A DNA stretch of 64,000 nucleotides from an uncultured archaeon (GTDB lineage: Archaea; Asgardarchaeota; Lokiarchaeia; Sigyniarchaeales; SOKP01), in contig CAZALK010000001.1 in the NCBI GenBank assembly GCA_964486045.1, positions 456,242-520,241 on the forward strand, given 5' to 3'. The notes under the pieces were generated by a model that was given only the letters and a program-made list of their open reading frames with translations, was not told the origin of the DNA and searched no databases. Of this stretch, positions 17,991 through 57,738 are shown piece after piece. The position numbers and the translations under genes are program-made. The stretch's first letter is position 1; each line of letters begins with the position of its first letter.

Positions 17991-18676
17991 AAAAAATCAT
18001 TAATTTTTTTGTTTACTAATTCTTCATTTACTAAATTCTTTGTAGTTGCCCAAGTTTTCCTCGCAATGGAGGGTACTTTCTGGTTTTTTCTAATCCAATC
18101 CCGAAGAAAGTTAATAGTTTTTTTATCAGAAGGGTATCCCGAGCCGAAGTCTCCATATTTTTCCTTTAGTTCATCAATTAATGAGTCTCTTTTATCTTTG
18201 GCAATAATTGAAGCTGCAGATACTATAGGAAATAGGTCATCAGCTTTATGCTTTGAAATAATTTCTTTTGGATTATAATTTAAAAGATTGAGGATAGATT
18301 GTGCGAATCTTGCTTCATTTACATCAACAGCGTCAATATAGATAGAATCAGGTTTTAACTCCCTAATAATTTCAGCCATTTTCAGCTCCTCCAGTTTATT
18401 CAGAGTAATTCTTTTTTCTTCTCTTTTATCAATTTCATCGGGAAGAACAACAATAACTTTAAAAGAATAACAGGACTCCTTAATTAACTTTGCTAATATG
18501 CTCCTCCTTTTAGTAGTTAATTTTTTAGAGTCTTTTACACCGATTTTTGTTAAATAAGATAAGCTGGATTCCTTAAAACATACACCACATAAAACAAGAG
18601 GTCCAATTACGGGGCCTTTTGGCATATAATCCAATAAGGATTATATTCTACCAGCCTCGTCAATACCACAAATCAT
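17987..18676 (-). CDS. rnhB: Ribonuclease HII; spliced CDS (exons 18676-18648 and 18617-17987), 219 aa
   Basis: ATG at 18676 gives MICGIDEAGR. After a 30-nt insertion the same frame continues GPVIGPLV...GVKDSKKL...KAD...VSAASIIAK...GSGYPSD. The ORF-track start (18634) lies inside the insertion and lacks the catalytic DE. Confidence 0.93.
18618..18647 (-). other. Putative 30-nt BHB mRNA intron in rnhB
   Basis: mRNA: GAGGC UGGU AG^A AUAUAAUCC UUAUU GGAUUAUAU GCCA AA^A GGCCCC; in-frame UAA. Removal restores GIDEAGRGPVIG. Confidence 0.88.
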
Positions 18677-51496: not shown

Positions 51497-54379
51497 ATGA
51501 GCTTCAAATCGAAAGGTCCGAAATCACATCCCAGCCACAGCCCTAAAGCTAAACCCGAACCGCCTAAACCCACCCCTGAAAAAGATTCAAAACCATCTAA
51601 CCAAAAACCGAACCAAAAGCCAAAACATAAACCTAATCAAAATTCTAAACCTCAACCAGGAAAAATTCGACAGGATAAAAATCAAAAACCAAAAACTAAC
51701 CCAAGTGAAAAATCTAAAAATAATATTAGCCCACCCCTCCTAGACCTGAATAACAATGCTAAAAAGATCATTACTAACCTCGCCTCTCAGCCAATTAAAG
51801 AACATACCACACCTCCTACAAAATCTCCCCTAGAACCGAATAAAGAATCTAAAAACAGAATAATCCGACCCGTTTTCAAACCGAATATGATTCAAAATGG
51901 TAATAATAGAATTAAACGCCCTAACTTCAAACCGGATCAACATAAAGGATCTAAAAATATCATCTCCCGACTAATATTCGATCCAAATAAACCTTCCTCT
52001 AATAAAAATAAAATTTCTCGGCCAAATTTCATACCTAATGATGAAGCTAAGAATAAAATCATAAAATATACAATTGAATCAACAGGAAAACCTAAAAACA
52101 GAATTAATAGATACCAAATTGACTCGGGTAAAAACCAACAATATAATAATAAAATAAGGAGGATTCCATTCAAGCCAAATGATGAAATTAAAAACAATAC
52201 CGAAAGTACACCCGCCAGACCTAAGCATATCAAAAATAATAGTCAACCAGCAATAATAAAACCAACTACTACACCCCCCCAAATAACCAAAAACAAGATT
52301 ATTAAGACTGAACCCCTCACTCACCCGCAAAAAGAAACCAGGAAAAATATAGTTAAATCCAGATGGGCATTCCTTAACTACGATGCTCAAGGAAACCTAC
52401 TCTCGCGTGAAGTCAAAATGCAAAATGCTGTCAACCACTTCAACCGAGAAATCCTTCCCGAATTAATGAAAGATCCCGCCATCGCTAAAAAAATTAAAAA
52501 ATTACACACAGTCGGTTCAAACGACCTAGTTCGTAAAAATTATAGCGGATTCCTCAACGCCTTGAGCAGAGAACATAAAATTAAATGGAGTGAACTCAAA
52601 TCTACTATAAGTCCTATTAAAATTACCACACATTTAACCATGCTGAAAGGGAAAACCTCGCTCAAGCCTAAACATAAGACTAAATCCAAACCAGATCTTA
52701 ATTATGACTACTTTTCCATGAATTATGATGATAACCTAAATCCGCTTAACCGTGAACAAAAACTTCAAAAGGCAATCACAGTCTACAATCAAAAAATTTT
52801 ACCTGATCTCCAAAATGTTCCAGAAATTAAAGAAAAACTCGAAAATGGAAAGAGTGTAAGCTACCGAGACCTTGAAAATCAAGGGTATGGGAATTTTTAC
52901 GAGGCTTTAAATAGAAATGGCGTGAAGATCAGATGGAACGAATTCAAACAAGAAGCTGGCTATAAAGTTAACATTGATCACGAAAAATACAAGTTTCTTA
53001 ACTACGATCAGAATGGCAATAGAATTAACCCTGAGGAAAAATTAGTCATTGCCCTTGACCACTACAATAATATTATCGTACCAGACTTGATGAAAATCCC
53101 TGAAATCAAACAAAAGATTGAATCTGGATATCCTCCTGCCCTTGATGATTTGATTAAATACGGACATCCGGGATTCATCGCACCCCTCTCTCAAAAAGAA
53201 CCAAAAATCCATTATAACACCTTAATTGAAGCAGCAGGCCTTAAACCAAATGTGGATCACAATAAATATCGATTCTTAAATTACAATGAACAAGATACTC
53301 CTCATTCTTATCAAGACAAAATGGAAATTGCCAAGGAATTCTTCAGTAATATCATTGTCCCAAAGCTGATCGAGAAAGATTTAATTAGACCAGGGGAAAC
53401 TCCAGGTCTCAGGGAAATGGTCAAGGGTGGATTCAGTGGATTTTTTCCTTCTCTCGCCTTTAAAGAACAGAAAATTGATTACAATGATCTAATTCAAGCA
53501 GTAGGTCTCGACCCAAATATTACTCATGGTCGTTGGGATTTCATCAAATATGACCATAACGGAAATATTCTCTCGAAGGAAGAAAAACTCGCCAACGCTG
53601 CTGATTATTTTAACACAATTGTTTACCCCGATTTAATTAACAAGGATGCTGTTAAGCAAGGAGAAGCCCCGACTTCCCTTGATCTACAGGATTATAAGCA
53701 TGAGGATTTTCTCAGTGCCTTGCGTGGTAAAGAACCTAAAGTTTCATTTAACCGTTTAATTGAGCATGCGGGATTCACCCCACATGATTTTAATACTTTA
53801 TCTACAATAGGCACTAATTTTCATTGGACCGCAGAAAAAATTTTTTTGGAACATACCAGAAATCAAAATTGCACTTCTTTCTATGAAGTTAGAGGAAATG
53901 GTGACAATTCAATTGTAGTTGATAAAAATTTTAAAAATTTATCCAATGGTGCGGATCTTCTTGCTCAATTACGTCCAAATATTAAGATTATTAATTTTGA
54001 TTATTTTCTCAGTAACTCAGAAAAAAGTAAAACTGATCATAGCCAAAGAAACTACCAAGGTGAAGAAGTAGCGCTTTGTCTTATCCCTCTAAATGCTAAT
54101 GAACCGCAAGACATAGATCAAGACATTCCTCATAGTAATAATGTTTTAGTTTTAAATCCTAAAGGTTTCGCCGCTTTCCTGGGATATAAAGATGGAATTT
54201 ACGATAAATTTATGGAAAGTGTCCAATTAGCGAGAATAGCCATGTACGATGAGGAGGCAAAAGAGATATTATATGAAATGAGAGTAGAAGCTTATGATGC
54301 CCTAAAAAGCAATGAAAACGATTTAAATTACTCGACAAAAGAATTTAAAAAGTTCCGCGATACACAAAAAGAAACTTAA
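51497..54379 (+). CDS. Low-complexity leader + five ~90-aa repeats + putative PD-(D/E)xK nuclease domain
   Basis: K/P/N-rich N-terminus with KNRI.RP.F.PN mini-repeats; 5x (F)LNYD..GN....EK...A..(F/Y)N..I.P.L...G...F..AL; C-terminal GTNFH...YE...GD...FDY. Confidence 0.7.
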   Translation: MSFKSKGPKSHPSHSPKAKPEPPKPTPEKDSKPSNQKPNQKPKHKPNQNSKPQPGKIRQDKNQKPKTNPSEKSKNNISPPLLDLNNNAKKIITNLASQPIKEHTTPPTKSPLEPNKESKNRIIRPVFKPNMIQNGNNRIKRPNFKPDQHKGSKNIISRLIFDPNKPSSNKNKISRPNFIPNDEAKNKIIKYTIESTGKPKNRINRYQIDSGKNQQYNNKIRRIPFKPNDEIKNNTESTPARPKHIKNNSQPAIIKPTTTPPQITKNKIIKTEPLTHPQKETRKNIVKSRWAFLNYDAQGNLLSREVKMQNAVNHFNREILPELMKDPAIAKKIKKLHTVGSNDLVRKNYSGFLNALSREHKIKWSELKSTISPIKITTHLTMLKGKTSLKPKHKTKSKPDLNYDYFSMNYDDNLNPLNREQKLQKAITVYNQKILPDLQNVPEIKEKLENGKSVSYRDLENQGYGNFYEALNRNGVKIRWNEFKQEAGYKVNIDHEKYKFLNYDQNGNRINPEEKLVIALDHYNNIIVPDLMKIPEIKQKIESGYPPALDDLIKYGHPGFIAPLSQKEPKIHYNTLIEAAGLKPNVDHNKYRFLNYNEQDTPHSYQDKMEIAKEFFSNIIVPKLIEKDLIRPGETPGLREMVKGGFSGFFPSLAFKEQKIDYNDLIQAVGLDPNITHGRWDFIKYDHNGNILSKEEKLANAADYFNTIVYPDLINKDAVKQGEAPTSLDLQDYKHEDFLSALRGKEPKVSFNRLIEHAGFTPHDFNTLSTIGTNFHWTAEKIFLEHTRNQNCTSFYEVRGNGDNSIVVDKNFKNLSNGADLLAQLRPNIKIINFDYFLSNSEKSKTDHSQRNYQGEEVALCLIPLNANEPQDIDQDIPHSNNVLVLNPKGFAAFLGYKDGIYDKFMESVQLARIAMYDEEAKEILYEMRVEAYDALKSNENDLNYSTKEFKKFRDTQKET

Positions 54380-54570
54380 GATGAGAATAGAATTAATTAT
54401 AAATATGAATTGTTTTACTATTTATTACAAGAACTTATATTTATAACAATTAAAAGAGTTAATTTTAGTAAAAATATAATTTATATCGAACTTAATAATA
54501 TGGTTGTTTATGATGTTTGATCGTAAAGGAAATTATTGGAATTACCAATTAAAGCTAGGAGGTGCGAGAA

Positions 54571-55356
54571 ATTCTCCATAATTTTTACTTGATACACCAG
54601 CATATCTCCCCGGAGATTCTCCGTTGAGTGTTAACGGGTATCTGTTTAATACATAGAAATTATGGCACCATCGAATTCAATCAGGATTTAGTGAGTGGCT
54701 TTCTAACCGCCCTTAAGGACTTTAGTGTTGAGTTTTCCAAGGGTAGCGGAGAACTCAAGGTTATAGGTTGTAGATAGATTTTATCTATTAATAAAGACAT
54801 GCAGATATTTTATCTGCTTTTAGTCTTTAAGGAGGGTGTCTTATGTACAGCTGCTGCTGATAAAAATGATGATGCCAAGATTACCCATAAAGCACTAACT
54901 GATATTATTGACAAATTCGTAGGAAAGTTCGGTGATCAGCTTGAGAATTGGTCTGGTGATGTACGTATTTTTCGAGACTTTGAGAGCATAATCGACGATG
55001 TCCTGAAAGTAGGTAAGGTTGCGGAGATCCAGCTAAAGATCCCGATACTCAAAATTTTCAAGAAGGATTTCATCAAGTCGCAGAAGCGCATTGCGAAGAA
55101 GGGGCTGGTGCTTTCGGAGGCGGATTTGCGAGAGGTGAAGGATGTGAAACCGGAGTGGGCTGCCAAGCGCTTACCGAAACAGGTTATAGCGACCGGAATT
55201 TTAGATGCGGTGGAGTTTGATATCGCGCATTTAGCGGACGGATTTCACACGCTTTCGGATATCGCGGAAGAGTCGGGTCACCCAGTGCCAGAGATTCAGA
55301 AGATTATGGACAATTTAGACAAGTTAGAGCTTCTTTCGTTTGTAGAGATAAAGTAA
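54571..55356 (+). CDS. Longin-like domain protein with C-terminal wHTH; spliced CDS (54571-54604, 54635-54766, 54797-55356), 241 aa, ATT start
   Basis: AGGAGGTG RBS at 54557-54564. Spliced product MLHNFYLIHQHTGICLIHRNYGTIEFNQDLVSGFLTALKDFSVEFSKGSGELKVIDMQIFYLLLVFKEGVLCTAAAD matches the Asgard longin-like pattern; DGFHTLSDIAEESG is wHTH-like. Confidence 0.82.
54605..54634 (+). other. Putative 30-nt BHB mRNA intron 1 in longin-like gene
   Basis: GAUAC(A)CC AGCA UA^U CUC CC CGGAG AUU CUCCG UU GAG UGUU AA^C GG GUAUC; in-frame UGA at 54625-54627. Confidence 0.83.
54767..54796 (+). other. Putative 30-nt BHB mRNA intron 2 in longin-like gene
   Basis: G UUAU AG^G UUGUAGAUA GAUUU UAUCUAUUA AUAA AG^A C; in-frame UAG at 54775-54777. 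Removal gives LKVIDMQ. Confidence 0.83.
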
Positions 55357-55812
55357 TTTTATTCTTTCTTTTTATATTAGACCATTTCTATAATGAAGAG
55401 TTTAGCCTATTCTTGAAAAATAATATCTTCAATTCGCTTCAAAAGCTGTTTTCCAAGCTTGGTGGGATAGACTTGTTTGAGCCATGTTGAGGTACGCCTC
55501 AATAGATTATCTCTTTCCTAGTGATTTAAGCGCTTTATTCATTAGCAGGCATACCACTCCTTTTAATTTTTTTAAATAATCCTGAGATATCTCCAATTTC
55601 TTTTTTTTTATTTTTTTAAATCTTTATATTTTATCTCTTTTCAAATCACAGCATATATACCAACCTAAATAATTATGAAGCATTAAGAGTAAAAGTAAAA
55701 AAAAATATCATAAAACAAGATGAAAAGTAAGATTAAAGTATATAATAAATTTTATGACGTTATAGAATTAAATGAATAAATTTTTGAAAACTAACTGATT
55801 TATAACGATAAG

Positions 55813-57285
55813 ATGAATGTTAATAAAGTTGAGGAGAATATTTATGAGATTCCTCCAAAAACATTGATGACCCGGATTCAAGGCAATATAGAGAAATTCC
55901 AAATGAACGTTCCTGTTAGAATTTATGCTAATAGCTATATATTAGAAAAAATCAAGGGAGATCGTACATTAGATCAAATAAGTAATGTTGCATGCTTACC
56001 AGGGGTACAAAAACACGTTATTGCATTATCCGATGCACATCAAGGATATGGTTTCTGTATTGGTGGAGTTGCTGGAACTGAAGCTGAGACAGGAATGATT
56101 TCTCCAGGAGGAGTTGGTTATGATATAAACTGCGGTGTGAGATTATTAAGGACAAATTTATTTCTCACCGATATTAAAAGTCTTTTACCTGAATTATTAG
56201 AGAATATTTATAGAAGTATCCCTTCTGGATTAGGGTCAAAAGGTAAATTAAATATTAGTTATTCTGACTTAGATAATGTTTTAAATAATGGAGTGAAATG
56301 GGCATTAGATAAGGGGTATGCTATTGATAAGGATGTTGACCATCTAGAGGAAAACGGGTGTCTAAAAAATGCGGATGCCACCTTAGTTTCACAGAAGGCA
56401 AAACAAAGAGGCATTAAGCAACTTGGTTCTTTAGGAAGCGGGAATCATTTTCTTGAAATACAAAGAGTAGATCAAATTTACAATAAAGCTATTGCGAAAA
56501 AATTAGGAATTTTCGAGAAAAACCAGATTAATATAATGGTTCATACGGGAAGTAGAGCATTAGGTCATCAAGTTTGTACAGATAGCCTGCGTACTATTGA
56601 AAAGGCGATGAAAACATATAAAATTAAAGTACCTGATAGGGAACTAGCCTGTGTACCAGCAGATACACCTGAAGCAGAAAATTACCTACAACAGATGGCA
56701 TGTGCTGCTAATTTTGGTTTTACAAATCGTCAGTTGATAACTCATTGGTTGAGAGAATCTTTTCAAAATGCATTTAATAAAGACATCGATGCATTAGATA
56801 TGCATATGATTTATGGTGTATGCCATAACATTCTAAAAATAGAAGAACATGATGTGAATGGAAAAAGAATGAATTTAAACATCCATCGTAAAGGTGCAAC
56901 AAGAGCTTTCCCTCCAGGACACCCTGATATACCTCAAGATTATAAAGACATTGGTCAACCTGTCTTGATTCCTGGAACCATGGGATCGGGTTCATACTTA
57001 TGTGTTGGTAAACCAAGGGCAATGGAGCTTTCTTTCGGATCAACCGCTCATGGCTCAGGTCGTTTAATGTCTCGATCGAAAGCCGTTAAACAATATTGGG
57101 GTGCTAAAGTAAAAGAGGATCTGGGAAAGAAAGGAATTTTAGTAAAAAGCGCTTCATTGAAGGTCCTCGCAGAAGAAAGCCCAGGTGCTTATAAAGATAT
57201 TGATCAAGTTGTTCAAGTTAGTCATAATCTTGGAATAGTTGAAAAAATCGTAAGATTTGTACCGGTAGGGGTTGTTAAAGGATAA
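55813..57285 (+). CDS. rtcB: RNA-splicing ligase RtcB
   Basis: DAHQGYGFCIGG, PGGVGYDINCG, GSGNHFLE, HTGSR, HN, HRKGAT, PGTMG, HGSGR, EESPGAYK. Confidence 0.97.
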   Translation: MNVNKVEENIYEIPPKTLMTRIQGNIEKFQMNVPVRIYANSYILEKIKGDRTLDQISNVACLPGVQKHVIALSDAHQGYGFCIGGVAGTEAETGMISPGGVGYDINCGVRLLRTNLFLTDIKSLLPELLENIYRSIPSGLGSKGKLNISYSDLDNVLNNGVKWALDKGYAIDKDVDHLEENGCLKNADATLVSQKAKQRGIKQLGSLGSGNHFLEIQRVDQIYNKAIAKKLGIFEKNQINIMVHTGSRALGHQVCTDSLRTIEKAMKTYKIKVPDRELACVPADTPEAENYLQQMACAANFGFTNRQLITHWLRESFQNAFNKDIDALDMHMIYGVCHNILKIEEHDVNGKRMNLNIHRKGATRAFPPGHPDIPQDYKDIGQPVLIPGTMGSGSYLCVGKPRAMELSFGSTAHGSGRLMSRSKAVKQYWGAKVKEDLGKKGILVKSASLKVLAEESPGAYKDIDQVVQVSHNLGIVEKIVRFVPVGVVKG

Positions 57286-57300
57286 TAATCAAAAAAAATA

Positions 57301-57738
57301 TTAAATATCAAAGACAATTCTAATCTCGACCTTGTCCTTTTTTTCTTCAATATTCATGAAAGAATAAGTAATTGCTTTAACTTCTGTCCCAATTTCATGT
57401 TTATTTCTATCAAATTGTTCTCCTTTCGCTATTGCAAATAATTTAAAATTTTCTTCAATCTTCAGTATTGATTTAACAGATACATAACTAAAAACTAAAT
57501 CTTCTACATCAAATATAAAGAGAAATTCAGATAGGAAGTCAAAGCATAGTGCATATTTATCTTCGGAGATAATTTCAATCTTTTTCTCGATTTTAGGCAT
57601 AACTTTTTTCAAGTTAGGAGTAATAGTAGTCATTAAGCTTAAAGCTGTTTGAGAAAACGCGTCTTCTAGGTTTTTTCCCCAACTTTTGACACTTACATCA
57701 GCAGTGTGGTCCATAAACTCAAATCCGGAGCCATTCAT
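57301..57738 (-). CDS. Archease
   Basis: FEFMDHTADV, GTEVKAITY, terminal VFDI; convergent with rtcB. Confidence 0.95.
   Translation of the reverse strand: MNGSGFEFMDHTADVSVKSWGKNLEDAFSQTALSLMTTITPNLKKVMPKIEKKIEIISEDKYALCFDFLSEFLFIFDVEDLVFSYVSVKSILKIEENFKLFAIAKGEQFDRNKHEIGTEVKAITYSFMNIEEKKDKVEIRIVFDI

What the first reader, a model, noticed from the sequence alone, without database searches (positions are those of the whole stretch)
54767..54796. BHB intron 2 in the same longin-like gene (two introns in one archaeal mRNA)
Central helix UUAU/AUAA, bulges AGG and AGA, closing G-C pair (weak outer helix), inner stem UUGUAGAUA/UAUCUAUUA, in-frame UAG. Excision gives GUU AUA G|AC AUG = KVIDM, restoring DLVSGFLTALKDF...ELKVIDMQ. 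A three-exon archaeal protein gene, with possible ordered or partial splicing, would be very unusual. The 3' part of this gene also looks more GC-rich than its flanks (by eye).
Basis: partly seen in the sequence, partly recalled or inferred. Interest (0 to 1): 0.86.

Follow-up and report, generated by a model that had tools for sequence, protein, structure and literature searches.

The report
Two tRNA-type introns in Asgard gene
A conserved gene of a Loki-type (Asgard) archaeon is broken by two 30-base inserts shaped like archaeal tRNA introns. The full protein can almost certainly be made only after the messenger RNA is cut and re-joined twice, which the papers I could search report for only one archaeal gene with one intron (cbf5).

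Summary
Confirmed. Removing them joins GTTATAG|ACATG, giving KVIDMQ, which is what uninterrupted orthologs encode (97% identical over 241 aa).

Of 161 ortholog loci from Lokiarchaeia assemblies, 24 carry an insert at this exact site: 22 of 30 nt and 2 of 29 nt, the latter frameshifting.
- All 24 keep the 4-bp helix and the two 3-nt bulges.
- The bulge-helix-bulge (BHB) fold is 93% paired, against 31-50% for slid controls, and six pairs show compensatory changes.
- All 24 carry an in-frame stop or a frameshift.
- The exon half of the helix (xTTATAG) is fixed in 23/23 bearers but occurs in only 7/128 intronless orthologs.

A second 30-nt BHB intron lies at 54605-54634, so the gene has three exons. 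Some relatives have a third insertion site 6 nt downstream of intron 1.

The genome encodes two EndA paralogs. RtcB and archease lie immediately downstream, and that linkage is conserved.

No RNA data could be obtained, so splicing is inferred and not observed.

This scan has flagged the same class in other Asgard genomes, and this gene on an overlapping window. In the searched papers only cbf5 of Crenarchaeota is known. New here are two introns in one mRNA, recurrent precise loss, and linkage to the ligase locus.

The parts
54562..55356 (+). Whole three-exon gene. The spliced product is 244 aa: an N-terminal longin fold and a C-terminal winged helix-turn-helix (wHTH).
   Evidence: The spliced translation has no stop and is 233/241 identical to intronless P0002. 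The AF2 model has pLDDT 87 and topology bb-a-bbb-a-a. Foldseek matches AP sigma, Sec22b and VAMP7 longin domains. The wHTH hits (HTH_47, TrmB) are sub-threshold.
54562..54604 (+). Exon 1. The likely start is GTG 54562, and the exon ends in CAG CAT A.
   Evidence: GTG 54562 aligns with the M of homologs that start MINILHN/MITILHN. The start codon is inferred.
54605..54634 (+). Intron 1, 30 nt, with a complete BHB and an in-frame TGA. The outer helix is 54591-54598 with 54636-54642, the central helix is AGCA/UGUU, and the bulges are UAU and AAC.
   Evidence: It is absent in L001/L002 and present in L003. The BHB is the minimum-free-energy fold, -16.4 kcal/mol. Seven loci carry it with compensatory changes in the inner stem.
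54635..54766 (+). Exon 2 (44 codons). It ends in GTT ATA G.
54767..54796 (+). Intron 2, the finding itself: 30 nt, with an in-frame TAG at 54775-54777.
   Evidence: It is absent to the base in intronless orthologs. It is present at this site in 24 of 161 loci. See also (covariation; frozen exon sites).
54758..54800 (+). The full BHB motif of intron 2.
- Outer pairs: 54760-54798 and 54758-54800.
- Central helix: 54761-54764 with 54791-54794.
- Bulges: 54765-54767 and 54795-54797.
- Inner stem: 54768-54776 with 54782-54790.
   Evidence: - 93% of cells are paired, against 31-50% for slid controls.
- Six pairs have changes on both sides.
- 0/500 shuffles reach the observed score.
- The outer pair covaries between G-C and A-U.
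54797..55356 (+). Exon 3. Gene callers report ATG 54799 to the stop as a separate 185-aa ORF.
   Evidence: P0001 and about 20 further 185-aa entries are the truncated calls.
55813..57285 (+). rtcB, the RNA ligase that would join the cut exons.
   Evidence: Pfam RtcB, E = 4.7e-167. It lies downstream on the same strand in 127 ortholog loci.
57301..57738 (-). Archease, the RtcB cofactor.
   Evidence: Pfam Archease, E = 2.5e-40.

Best explanation
The 30 nt at 54767-54796 are a bulge-helix-bulge (tRNA-type) intron in the pre-mRNA of a longin-wHTH gene. It is the second of two such introns.

Proposed mechanism:
1. The transcript folds so that exon bases UUAU pair with intron bases AUAA. This places two 3-nt bulges 4 bp apart, next to a 9-bp intron hairpin.
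2. The heterotetrameric splicing endonuclease EndA cuts after the second base of each bulge.
3. RtcB, with archease, joins the exons (GUUAUAG|ACAUG) and probably circularises the 30-nt intron.
4. The same steps at 54605-54634 remove intron 1.

Only the doubly spliced mRNA encodes the 244-aa protein. Unspliced RNA terminates at UGA 54625 or UAG 54775.

Shown here: the motif, the exact joints, their conservation and covariation, and the presence of the enzymes. Inferred: the cleavage and ligation themselves.
For: 1. Intronless orthologs read ...GSGELKVIDMQIFY... and ...HQHTGICL... across both joints. The DNA alignment shows two exact 30-nt gaps. The spliced product is 233/241 identical to P0002.
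2. 24 of 161 loci carry an insert at site 2, and all 24 have the central helix 4/4 and 3-nt bulges. Two of the inserts are 29 nt, so they shift the frame.
3. The BHB fold is 93% paired against 31-50% for slid controls. Six pairs have double changes (28 cells), and 0/500 shuffles reach this. The rival hairpin register shows no covariation.
4. Exon bases xTTATAG are fixed in 23/23 bearers against 7/128 intronless orthologs. This is an uncorrected Fisher test (2e-21); relatedness inflates it, but bearers occupy at least 11 separate places on the tree. In bearers the outer pair is G..C (18) or A..T (4), whereas G..T is commonest in intronless genes.
5. Every copy has an in-frame stop or a frameshift, and the would-be read-through peptides are not conserved.
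6. All 152 spliced coding sequences are free of stops.
7. The genome has two EndA paralogs with both domains, plus RtcB and archease. Asgard EndA is the broad-specificity (alpha-beta)2 type (PMC5829648).
8. The inserts are real DNA, present in two independent assemblies.
9. The same genome has further genes with the same kind of insert, for example RNase HII at 18618-18647 on the minus strand, where excision restores GIDEAGRGP.
Against: - No RNA evidence: no run on record as RNA holds this DNA.
- The BHB of intron 2 is a minor conformer in nearest-neighbour energetics: -1.8 to +0.2 kcal/mol against an MFE of -6.2, and the region folds no better than shuffles (z = +0.95).
- The outer helix is only one Watson-Crick pair, a mismatch and one A-U pair, so the motif is relaxed rather than canonical.
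- ATG 54799 directly follows the intron, so a separate 185-aa product from unspliced RNA cannot be excluded.
Confidence: 0.9

Rival explanations
1. Split or truncated gene. The inserts are fixed DNA insertions that are never removed. The cell makes the 185-aa C-terminal part from ATG 54799, and perhaps small N-terminal peptides, as gene callers annotate.
For: ATG 54799 is present, and gene callers report 185-aa ORFs for the window and about 20 relatives. No RNA shows splicing.
Against: - The ATG is the conserved Met57 of all orthologs, with or without the intron.
- The cut falls in the b3-b4 turn of a single longin fold, so the 185-aa piece lacks b1-b2-a1-b3.
- Exons 1-2 stay intact and almost invariant in all bearers.
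- This model does not explain the conserved RNA pairing or the frozen exon sites.
Confidence: 0.05
2. Translational bypass or stop read-through. The ribosome hops over or reads through the 30 nt, as in phage T4 gene 60.
For: There is a hairpin with an in-frame stop right after the take-off region, and the insert length is a multiple of three in the window.
Against: - Landing on the only matching ATA (54791-54793) gives the wrong frame and residues (direct reading).
- The 29-nt copies, and site-1 inserts of 29-37 nt, need an exact nucleotide-level excision.
- Both TAG and TGA occur as the stop, so recoding is unlikely.
- The conserved element is a BHB with cut sites at the joints, not a take-off/landing pair.
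Confidence: 0.02
3. A recent insertion of a small palindromic mobile DNA element (MITE-like) that has inactivated the gene, making it a pseudogene.
For: The insert is a short AT-rich hairpin flanked by AG at both ends.
Against: - There is no second copy of either insert in the 5.18-Mb genome.
- The same site is occupied in lineages whose exon 3 is only 67-96% identical, in both major clades of the gene tree.
- The exons are under strong purifying selection.
Confidence: 0.02

Closest known systems
The cbf5 pre-mRNA BHB intron of Crenarchaeota (Watanabe 2002; Yoshinari 2006; Yokobori 2009, PMC2738675)
   Same: It is a BHB intron inside a protein-coding mRNA. It is predicted or shown to be cut by a heteromeric EndA and re-ligated. 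It is patchily present among relatives through gain and loss.
   Different: - The gene is different (longin-wHTH rather than a pseudouridine synthase), and so is the phylum (Asgard/Lokiarchaeia).
- There are two introns in one mRNA, and a third site is used in relatives.
- The introns are very short (29-37 nt).
- The gene is linked to rtcB and archease.
- Splicing of cbf5 was shown experimentally; here it is inferred.
Non-canonical and multiple BHB introns of archaeal tRNA genes, which are very frequent in Asgard genomes (PMC11291895; preprint 10.64898/2026.10.13.758758)
   Same: The motif, the cut rule (after the second bulge base), the size range and the machinery are the same. A relaxed outer helix is tolerated by (alpha-beta)2 EndA (PMC5829648).
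   Different: The host RNA is an mRNA, so the exon half of the motif is also constrained by codons, and the intron carries stop codons. There is no tRNA body to help recognition.
HAC1/XBP1 unconventional mRNA splicing in eukaryotes
   Same: It is non-spliceosomal: an endonuclease cuts at paired stem-loops, and in metazoans RtcB ligates. Splicing is needed to make a DNA-binding protein.
   Different: The endonuclease there is IRE1, not EndA/TSEN. The motif is twin 7-nt loops, not a BHB. It is stress-regulated, and no regulation is shown here.

Membership tests
Archaeal BHB intron (EndA/RtcB-spliced) | [quoted passage not shown] | tested here: met
   UUAU/AUAA with bulges AGG and AGA in the window. 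The central helix is 4/4 with 3-nt bulges in 24/24 copies.
Archaeal BHB intron (EndA/RtcB-spliced) | Cutting after the second base of each bulge yields a functional joined RNA | tested here: met
   The joint GTTATAG|ACATG gives KVIDMQ, as in intronless orthologs. All 152 spliced coding sequences are open.
Archaeal BHB intron (EndA/RtcB-spliced) | Flanking helices: inner h' and outer h (the canonical hBHBh' form) | tested here: inconclusive
   The inner helix has 9 pairs, 89% paired, and 5 of them covary. The outer helix is one covarying Watson-Crick pair, a mismatch and an A-U, which is a relaxed form. Intron 1 has a full 7-bp outer helix.
Archaeal BHB intron (EndA/RtcB-spliced) | The fold is maintained in evolution by compensatory substitutions | tested here: met
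   93% paired, 28 double-change cells, 0/500 shuffles; the rival register shows none; exon sites are frozen only in bearers.
Archaeal BHB intron (EndA/RtcB-spliced) | The splicing endonuclease and ligase are encoded by the host | tested here: met
   Two EndA paralogs of 201 and 200 aa, each with N and C domains. RtcB and archease are also present.
Archaeal BHB intron (EndA/RtcB-spliced) | The excised junction and circular intron are observed in RNA | not testable with these tools
Longin domain protein | b-b-a-b-b-b-a-a fold resembling SNARE or adaptor-sigma longin domains | tested here: met
   The AF2 model has pLDDT 87 and elements in that order. Foldseek matches AP-1 sigma, Sec22b (TM by target 0.73) and VAMP7.
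Longin domain protein | Match to Pfam Longin (PF13774) above the curated cut-off | tested here: not met
   E = 0.016-0.12 and 12.8-15.6 bits, against a cut-off of 26.2. It is longin-like by fold only.
Programmed translational bypass (T4 gene 60 type) | Matched take-off and landing codons that restore the ortholog frame | tested here: not met
   The only matching ATA (54791-54793) lands out of frame. The 29-nt and 31-37-nt inserts also argue against it.

The most novel reading that the evidence does not exclude
Making this longin-wHTH protein depends on the RNA ligase encoded next to it, forming a splicing-gated feedback loop.

The protein stays linked to rtcB and archease in two different gene arrangements, and it ends in a DNA-binding-type winged helix. 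It may therefore regulate or partner the RtcB-archease system. Because its own mRNA needs two EndA/RtcB splicing events, ligase capacity could set the level of its own regulator, as an archaeal analogue of RtcB-dependent XBP1 activation.
Probability: 0.12. Interest if true: 0.9.

Novelty: new variant of a known kind. Interest (0 to 1): 0.8.

Why it matters
Endonuclease-type (BHB) splicing of a protein-coding message was documented, in the papers I could search, for one gene (cbf5) with one intron in Crenarchaeota.

This case differs in several ways:
- A message in the closest archaeal relatives of eukaryotes needs two such splicing events.
- Relatives use a third insertion site.
- The intron is old, has been lost precisely many times, and visibly constrains the codons that form its helix.
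- The same genome has several other interrupted genes.

Together these suggest that tRNA-type splicing is a regular part of mRNA maturation in Lokiarchaeia.

Practical consequence: gene callers truncate or split such genes, as with the 185-aa entries in public databases, so Asgard proteomes and gene-content comparisons are systematically affected.

Biological consequences:
- It raises the question of how a cell with coupled transcription and translation handles unspliced mRNA.
- It offers a tractable model for intron gain and loss in protein genes without a spliceosome.

Tried and rejected
- **RNA evidence.** No RNA holder was listed for the stretch. Only DNA contigs could be laid, and they show the inserts but cannot show splicing.
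- **Thermodynamic folding.** The MFE of 54745-54815 is not the BHB and is no better than shuffles. The BHB energy is marginal at 37, 20 and 10 C. The alternative MFE register of the hairpin was tested on the alignment and rejected: 73% paired and no covariation.
- **Genome-wide census.** A homology-free scan for BHB plus joined ORFs gave thousands of hits with no enrichment over slid-partner controls, even after a codon-usage filter: 53 hits against 32-79. It also missed the two known introns because of my thresholds. No census can be given. Only individual hits recognisable by restored conserved motifs were kept.
- **Multi-copy element.** BLAST of both introns against the genome found only short AT-rich chance matches, and the best one lies in non-coding DNA.
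- **Other points.** ARAGORN found no tRNA in the window. Pfam Longin stays below its cut-off. No binding test between the protein and RtcB was run, because I make no binding claim.

Full report
**The observation**

The window shows a broken reading frame. An ORF at 54628-54777 ends ...GSGELKVIGCR at a stop. A second ORF starts at ATG 54799 and runs for 185 aa.

- Central helix UUAU (54761-54764) with AUAA (54791-54794).
- Bulges AGG (54765-54767) and AGA (54795-54797).
- Outer pair G54760-C54798.
- Inner stem 54768-54776 with 54782-54790, containing one U.U.
- In-frame TAG at 54775-54777.

The archaeal endonuclease cuts after the second base of each bulge. Applied here, that rule gives GTT ATA G|AC ATG.

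**Comparison with orthologs**

A protein search with the 185-aa ORF found 409 relatives, nearly all from Lokiarchaeia/Promethearchaeota assemblies. Most are 241-244 aa. They read ...GSGELKVIDMQIFYLL... across the proposed joint and ...LIHQHTGICL... across a second break upstream.

A DNA alignment with the loci of a 96%-identical intronless ortholog shows two exact 30-nt gaps and nothing else. A third locus carries only the upstream insert.

The window's gene therefore has three exons:
- Exon 1: 54562-54604.
- Exon 2: 54635-54766.
- Exon 3: 54797-55356.

The spliced product is 244 aa and 233/241 identical to the intronless ortholog. Unspliced, the frame stops at TGA 54625 and again at TAG 54775.

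**Distribution of the inserts**

I fetched 161 ortholog loci and located inserts by alignment to an intronless reference, refined by the BHB rule.
- 132 loci have no insert.
- 24 have an insert at exactly the site of the finding. Of these, 22 are 30 nt and 2 are 29 nt, which shifts the frame.
- Site 1 comes in two versions. One is at the window's position (30-31 nt, 7 loci). The other lies 6 nt downstream (29-37 nt, 8 loci).

After removal of the inferred introns, all 152 usable coding sequences are free of stops and the N-terminal 56 residues are almost invariant. Every insert copy carries an in-frame stop or a frameshift, and the peptides that read-through would add are not conserved.

**RNA structure**

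All 24 site-2 copies keep a 4/4 central helix and two 3-nt bulges. On an alignment of 20 distinct copies (A2), the BHB fold gave these results:
- 93% of cells are paired, against 31-50% when the 3' partners are slid by 1-3 columns.
- Six pairs have changes on both sides (28 cells).
- 0 of 500 shuffles reach the observed covariation.
- The single outer Watson-Crick pair switches between G-C and A-U.

The register that ViennaRNA prefers for the hairpin shows no covariation: 73% paired, with 250/500 shuffles as good.

An independent signal comes from the exons. The bases that form the exon half of the helix and the first bulge (xTTATAG, codons Val/Ile-Ile-Asp) are fixed in 23/23 intron bearers. 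They occur in only 7/128 intronless orthologs, where the third codon positions vary freely (uncorrected Fisher 2e-21). In bearers the outer pair is G..C or A..T in 22/23, whereas G..T is the commonest combination in intronless genes. These counts are not corrected for relatedness. However, bearers occupy at least 11 separate, well-supported places on the gene tree.

**Weak points of the motif**

On its own, the BHB of intron 2 is a poor fold. Its energy is -1.8 to +0.2 kcal/mol against an MFE of -6.2 at 37 C, and it remains a minor conformer at 10-20 C. The outer helix is minimal, so this is a relaxed motif.

Intron 1 is different. Its BHB, with a 7-bp outer helix, is the MFE structure at -16.4 kcal/mol and makes up about 25% of the ensemble.

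Asgard archaea are reported to have the (alpha-beta)2 EndA with the loop that confers broad specificity (PMC5829648). This genome has two EndA paralogs of 200-201 aa, each with both domains.

**History**

The intron occurs in both major clades of the gene tree, and copies in the two clades are recognisably similar in sequence. Parsimony needs 15 changes, and starred branches force at least 11. The simplest reading is an old intron that has been lost precisely many times. Repeated gain at one site is not excluded.

Site-1 and site-2 introns tend to occur together. 13 of the 23 intron-2 bearers on the tree also have a site-1 intron, against 2 of 128 non-bearers. This fits loss by short conversion tracts, which is an inference.

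**The gene and its neighbours**

An AlphaFold2 model of the intronless ortholog (pLDDT 87) has the b-b-a-b-b-b-a-a order of a longin domain at residues 1-128, followed by a C-terminal winged helix. Foldseek finds adaptor sigma subunits, the Sec22b and VAMP7 longin domains, and then roadblock/MglB proteins. Pfam Longin and the wHTH families score below their cut-offs.

Both introns fall in b-hairpin turns, and both split a codon after its first base.

rtcB lies downstream on the same strand in 127 ortholog loci, including 68 of the 79 with at least 700 nt of downstream DNA. Archease follows, convergent to rtcB. A 44%-identical homolog sits between a divergent rtcB and a downstream archease, so the linkage survives a rearrangement. 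A functional tie to the ligase system is plausible but untested.

**Not an artefact, not a repeat**

Logan contigs of two runs hold the stretch with both inserts and no indel. Neither intron has a second copy in the 5.18-Mb genome.

**Wider context**

The same window has a 30-nt BHB insert in RNase HII (18618-18647, minus strand). Its excision restores GIDEAG-R-GP.

My crude genome scan gave no usable census. It did recover inserts whose removal restores conserved motifs in uL11, a thiolase and a DKHS|TGGV phosphorylase-like gene.

Notes of this scan list more such genes in this genome and in other Asgard genomes. By their own account, two of the other-genome cases have RNA contigs lacking the insert. 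I did not test those.

In the searched literature, only cbf5 is reported as a BHB-spliced archaeal coding sequence (PMC2738675). The Asgard papers found deal with tRNA introns only.

**Verdict**

This is a real, selected BHB intron, one of two in a three-exon archaeal protein gene. The remaining gap is direct RNA evidence.

Noticed in passing
window 18618-18647 (minus strand): A 30-nt BHB insert sits in the RNase HII gene, with central helix UGGU/GCCA, bulges AGA and AAA, and an in-frame TAA. Excision gives GCT GGT AG|A GGC CCC and restores the catalytic motif GIDEAGRGP.
   Followed up: partly
genome C5:238662-238689 (+), C3:186175-186204 (+), C7:186723-186752 (-): There are further 28-30-nt BHB-like inserts whose removal restores conserved motifs:
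- uL11: PPIGPAVGPTGI|NIKD.
- A thiolase: NYCASGM|DAFR.
- A DKHS|TGGVPGN phosphorylase-like gene.

They were found by a scan that as a whole showed no enrichment over controls.
   Followed up: partly
window 55000-55300: The 3' third of the gene has GC 0.50-0.545 in a 0.2-0.4 background. Its third-codon-position GC (GC3) is 0.62, the highest of 151 orthologs (median 0.33). Its closest relatives (L001/L002, L086) share the trend. The cause is unknown.
   Followed up: partly
window 54562-57738; loci L004-L165; L166: The longin-wHTH gene is linked to rtcB in 127 ortholog loci. In a 44%-identical homolog it sits between a divergent rtcB and a downstream archease. The linkage to the RNA ligase system therefore holds in two arrangements.
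   Followed up: partly
loci L052, L060, L069, L078, L097, L124, L145, L147 (about 160 nt upstream of exon 3): A third intron position lies 6 nt downstream of the window's intron 1. It has the form CNGG[NA|A]...CCNG[AA|T] and lengths of 29-37 nt, mostly not multiples of three. It is either an independent gain or intron sliding within the same b1-b2 loop.
   Followed up: partly
window 54556-54573: The codon aligned with the Met of many 241-aa orthologs is ATT here, and it is TTG, ATT, ATC, ATG and others across orthologs. An in-frame GTG at 54562 matches the start of the 244-aa homologs, but it lies inside a GGAGGTG Shine-Dalgarno-like string. The true start is uncertain.
   Followed up: partly
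window 51497-54379: A 960-aa ORF upstream has a Pro/Lys/Asn-rich leader, about five ~90-aa repeats, and no Pfam match at E <= 1.
   Followed up: no
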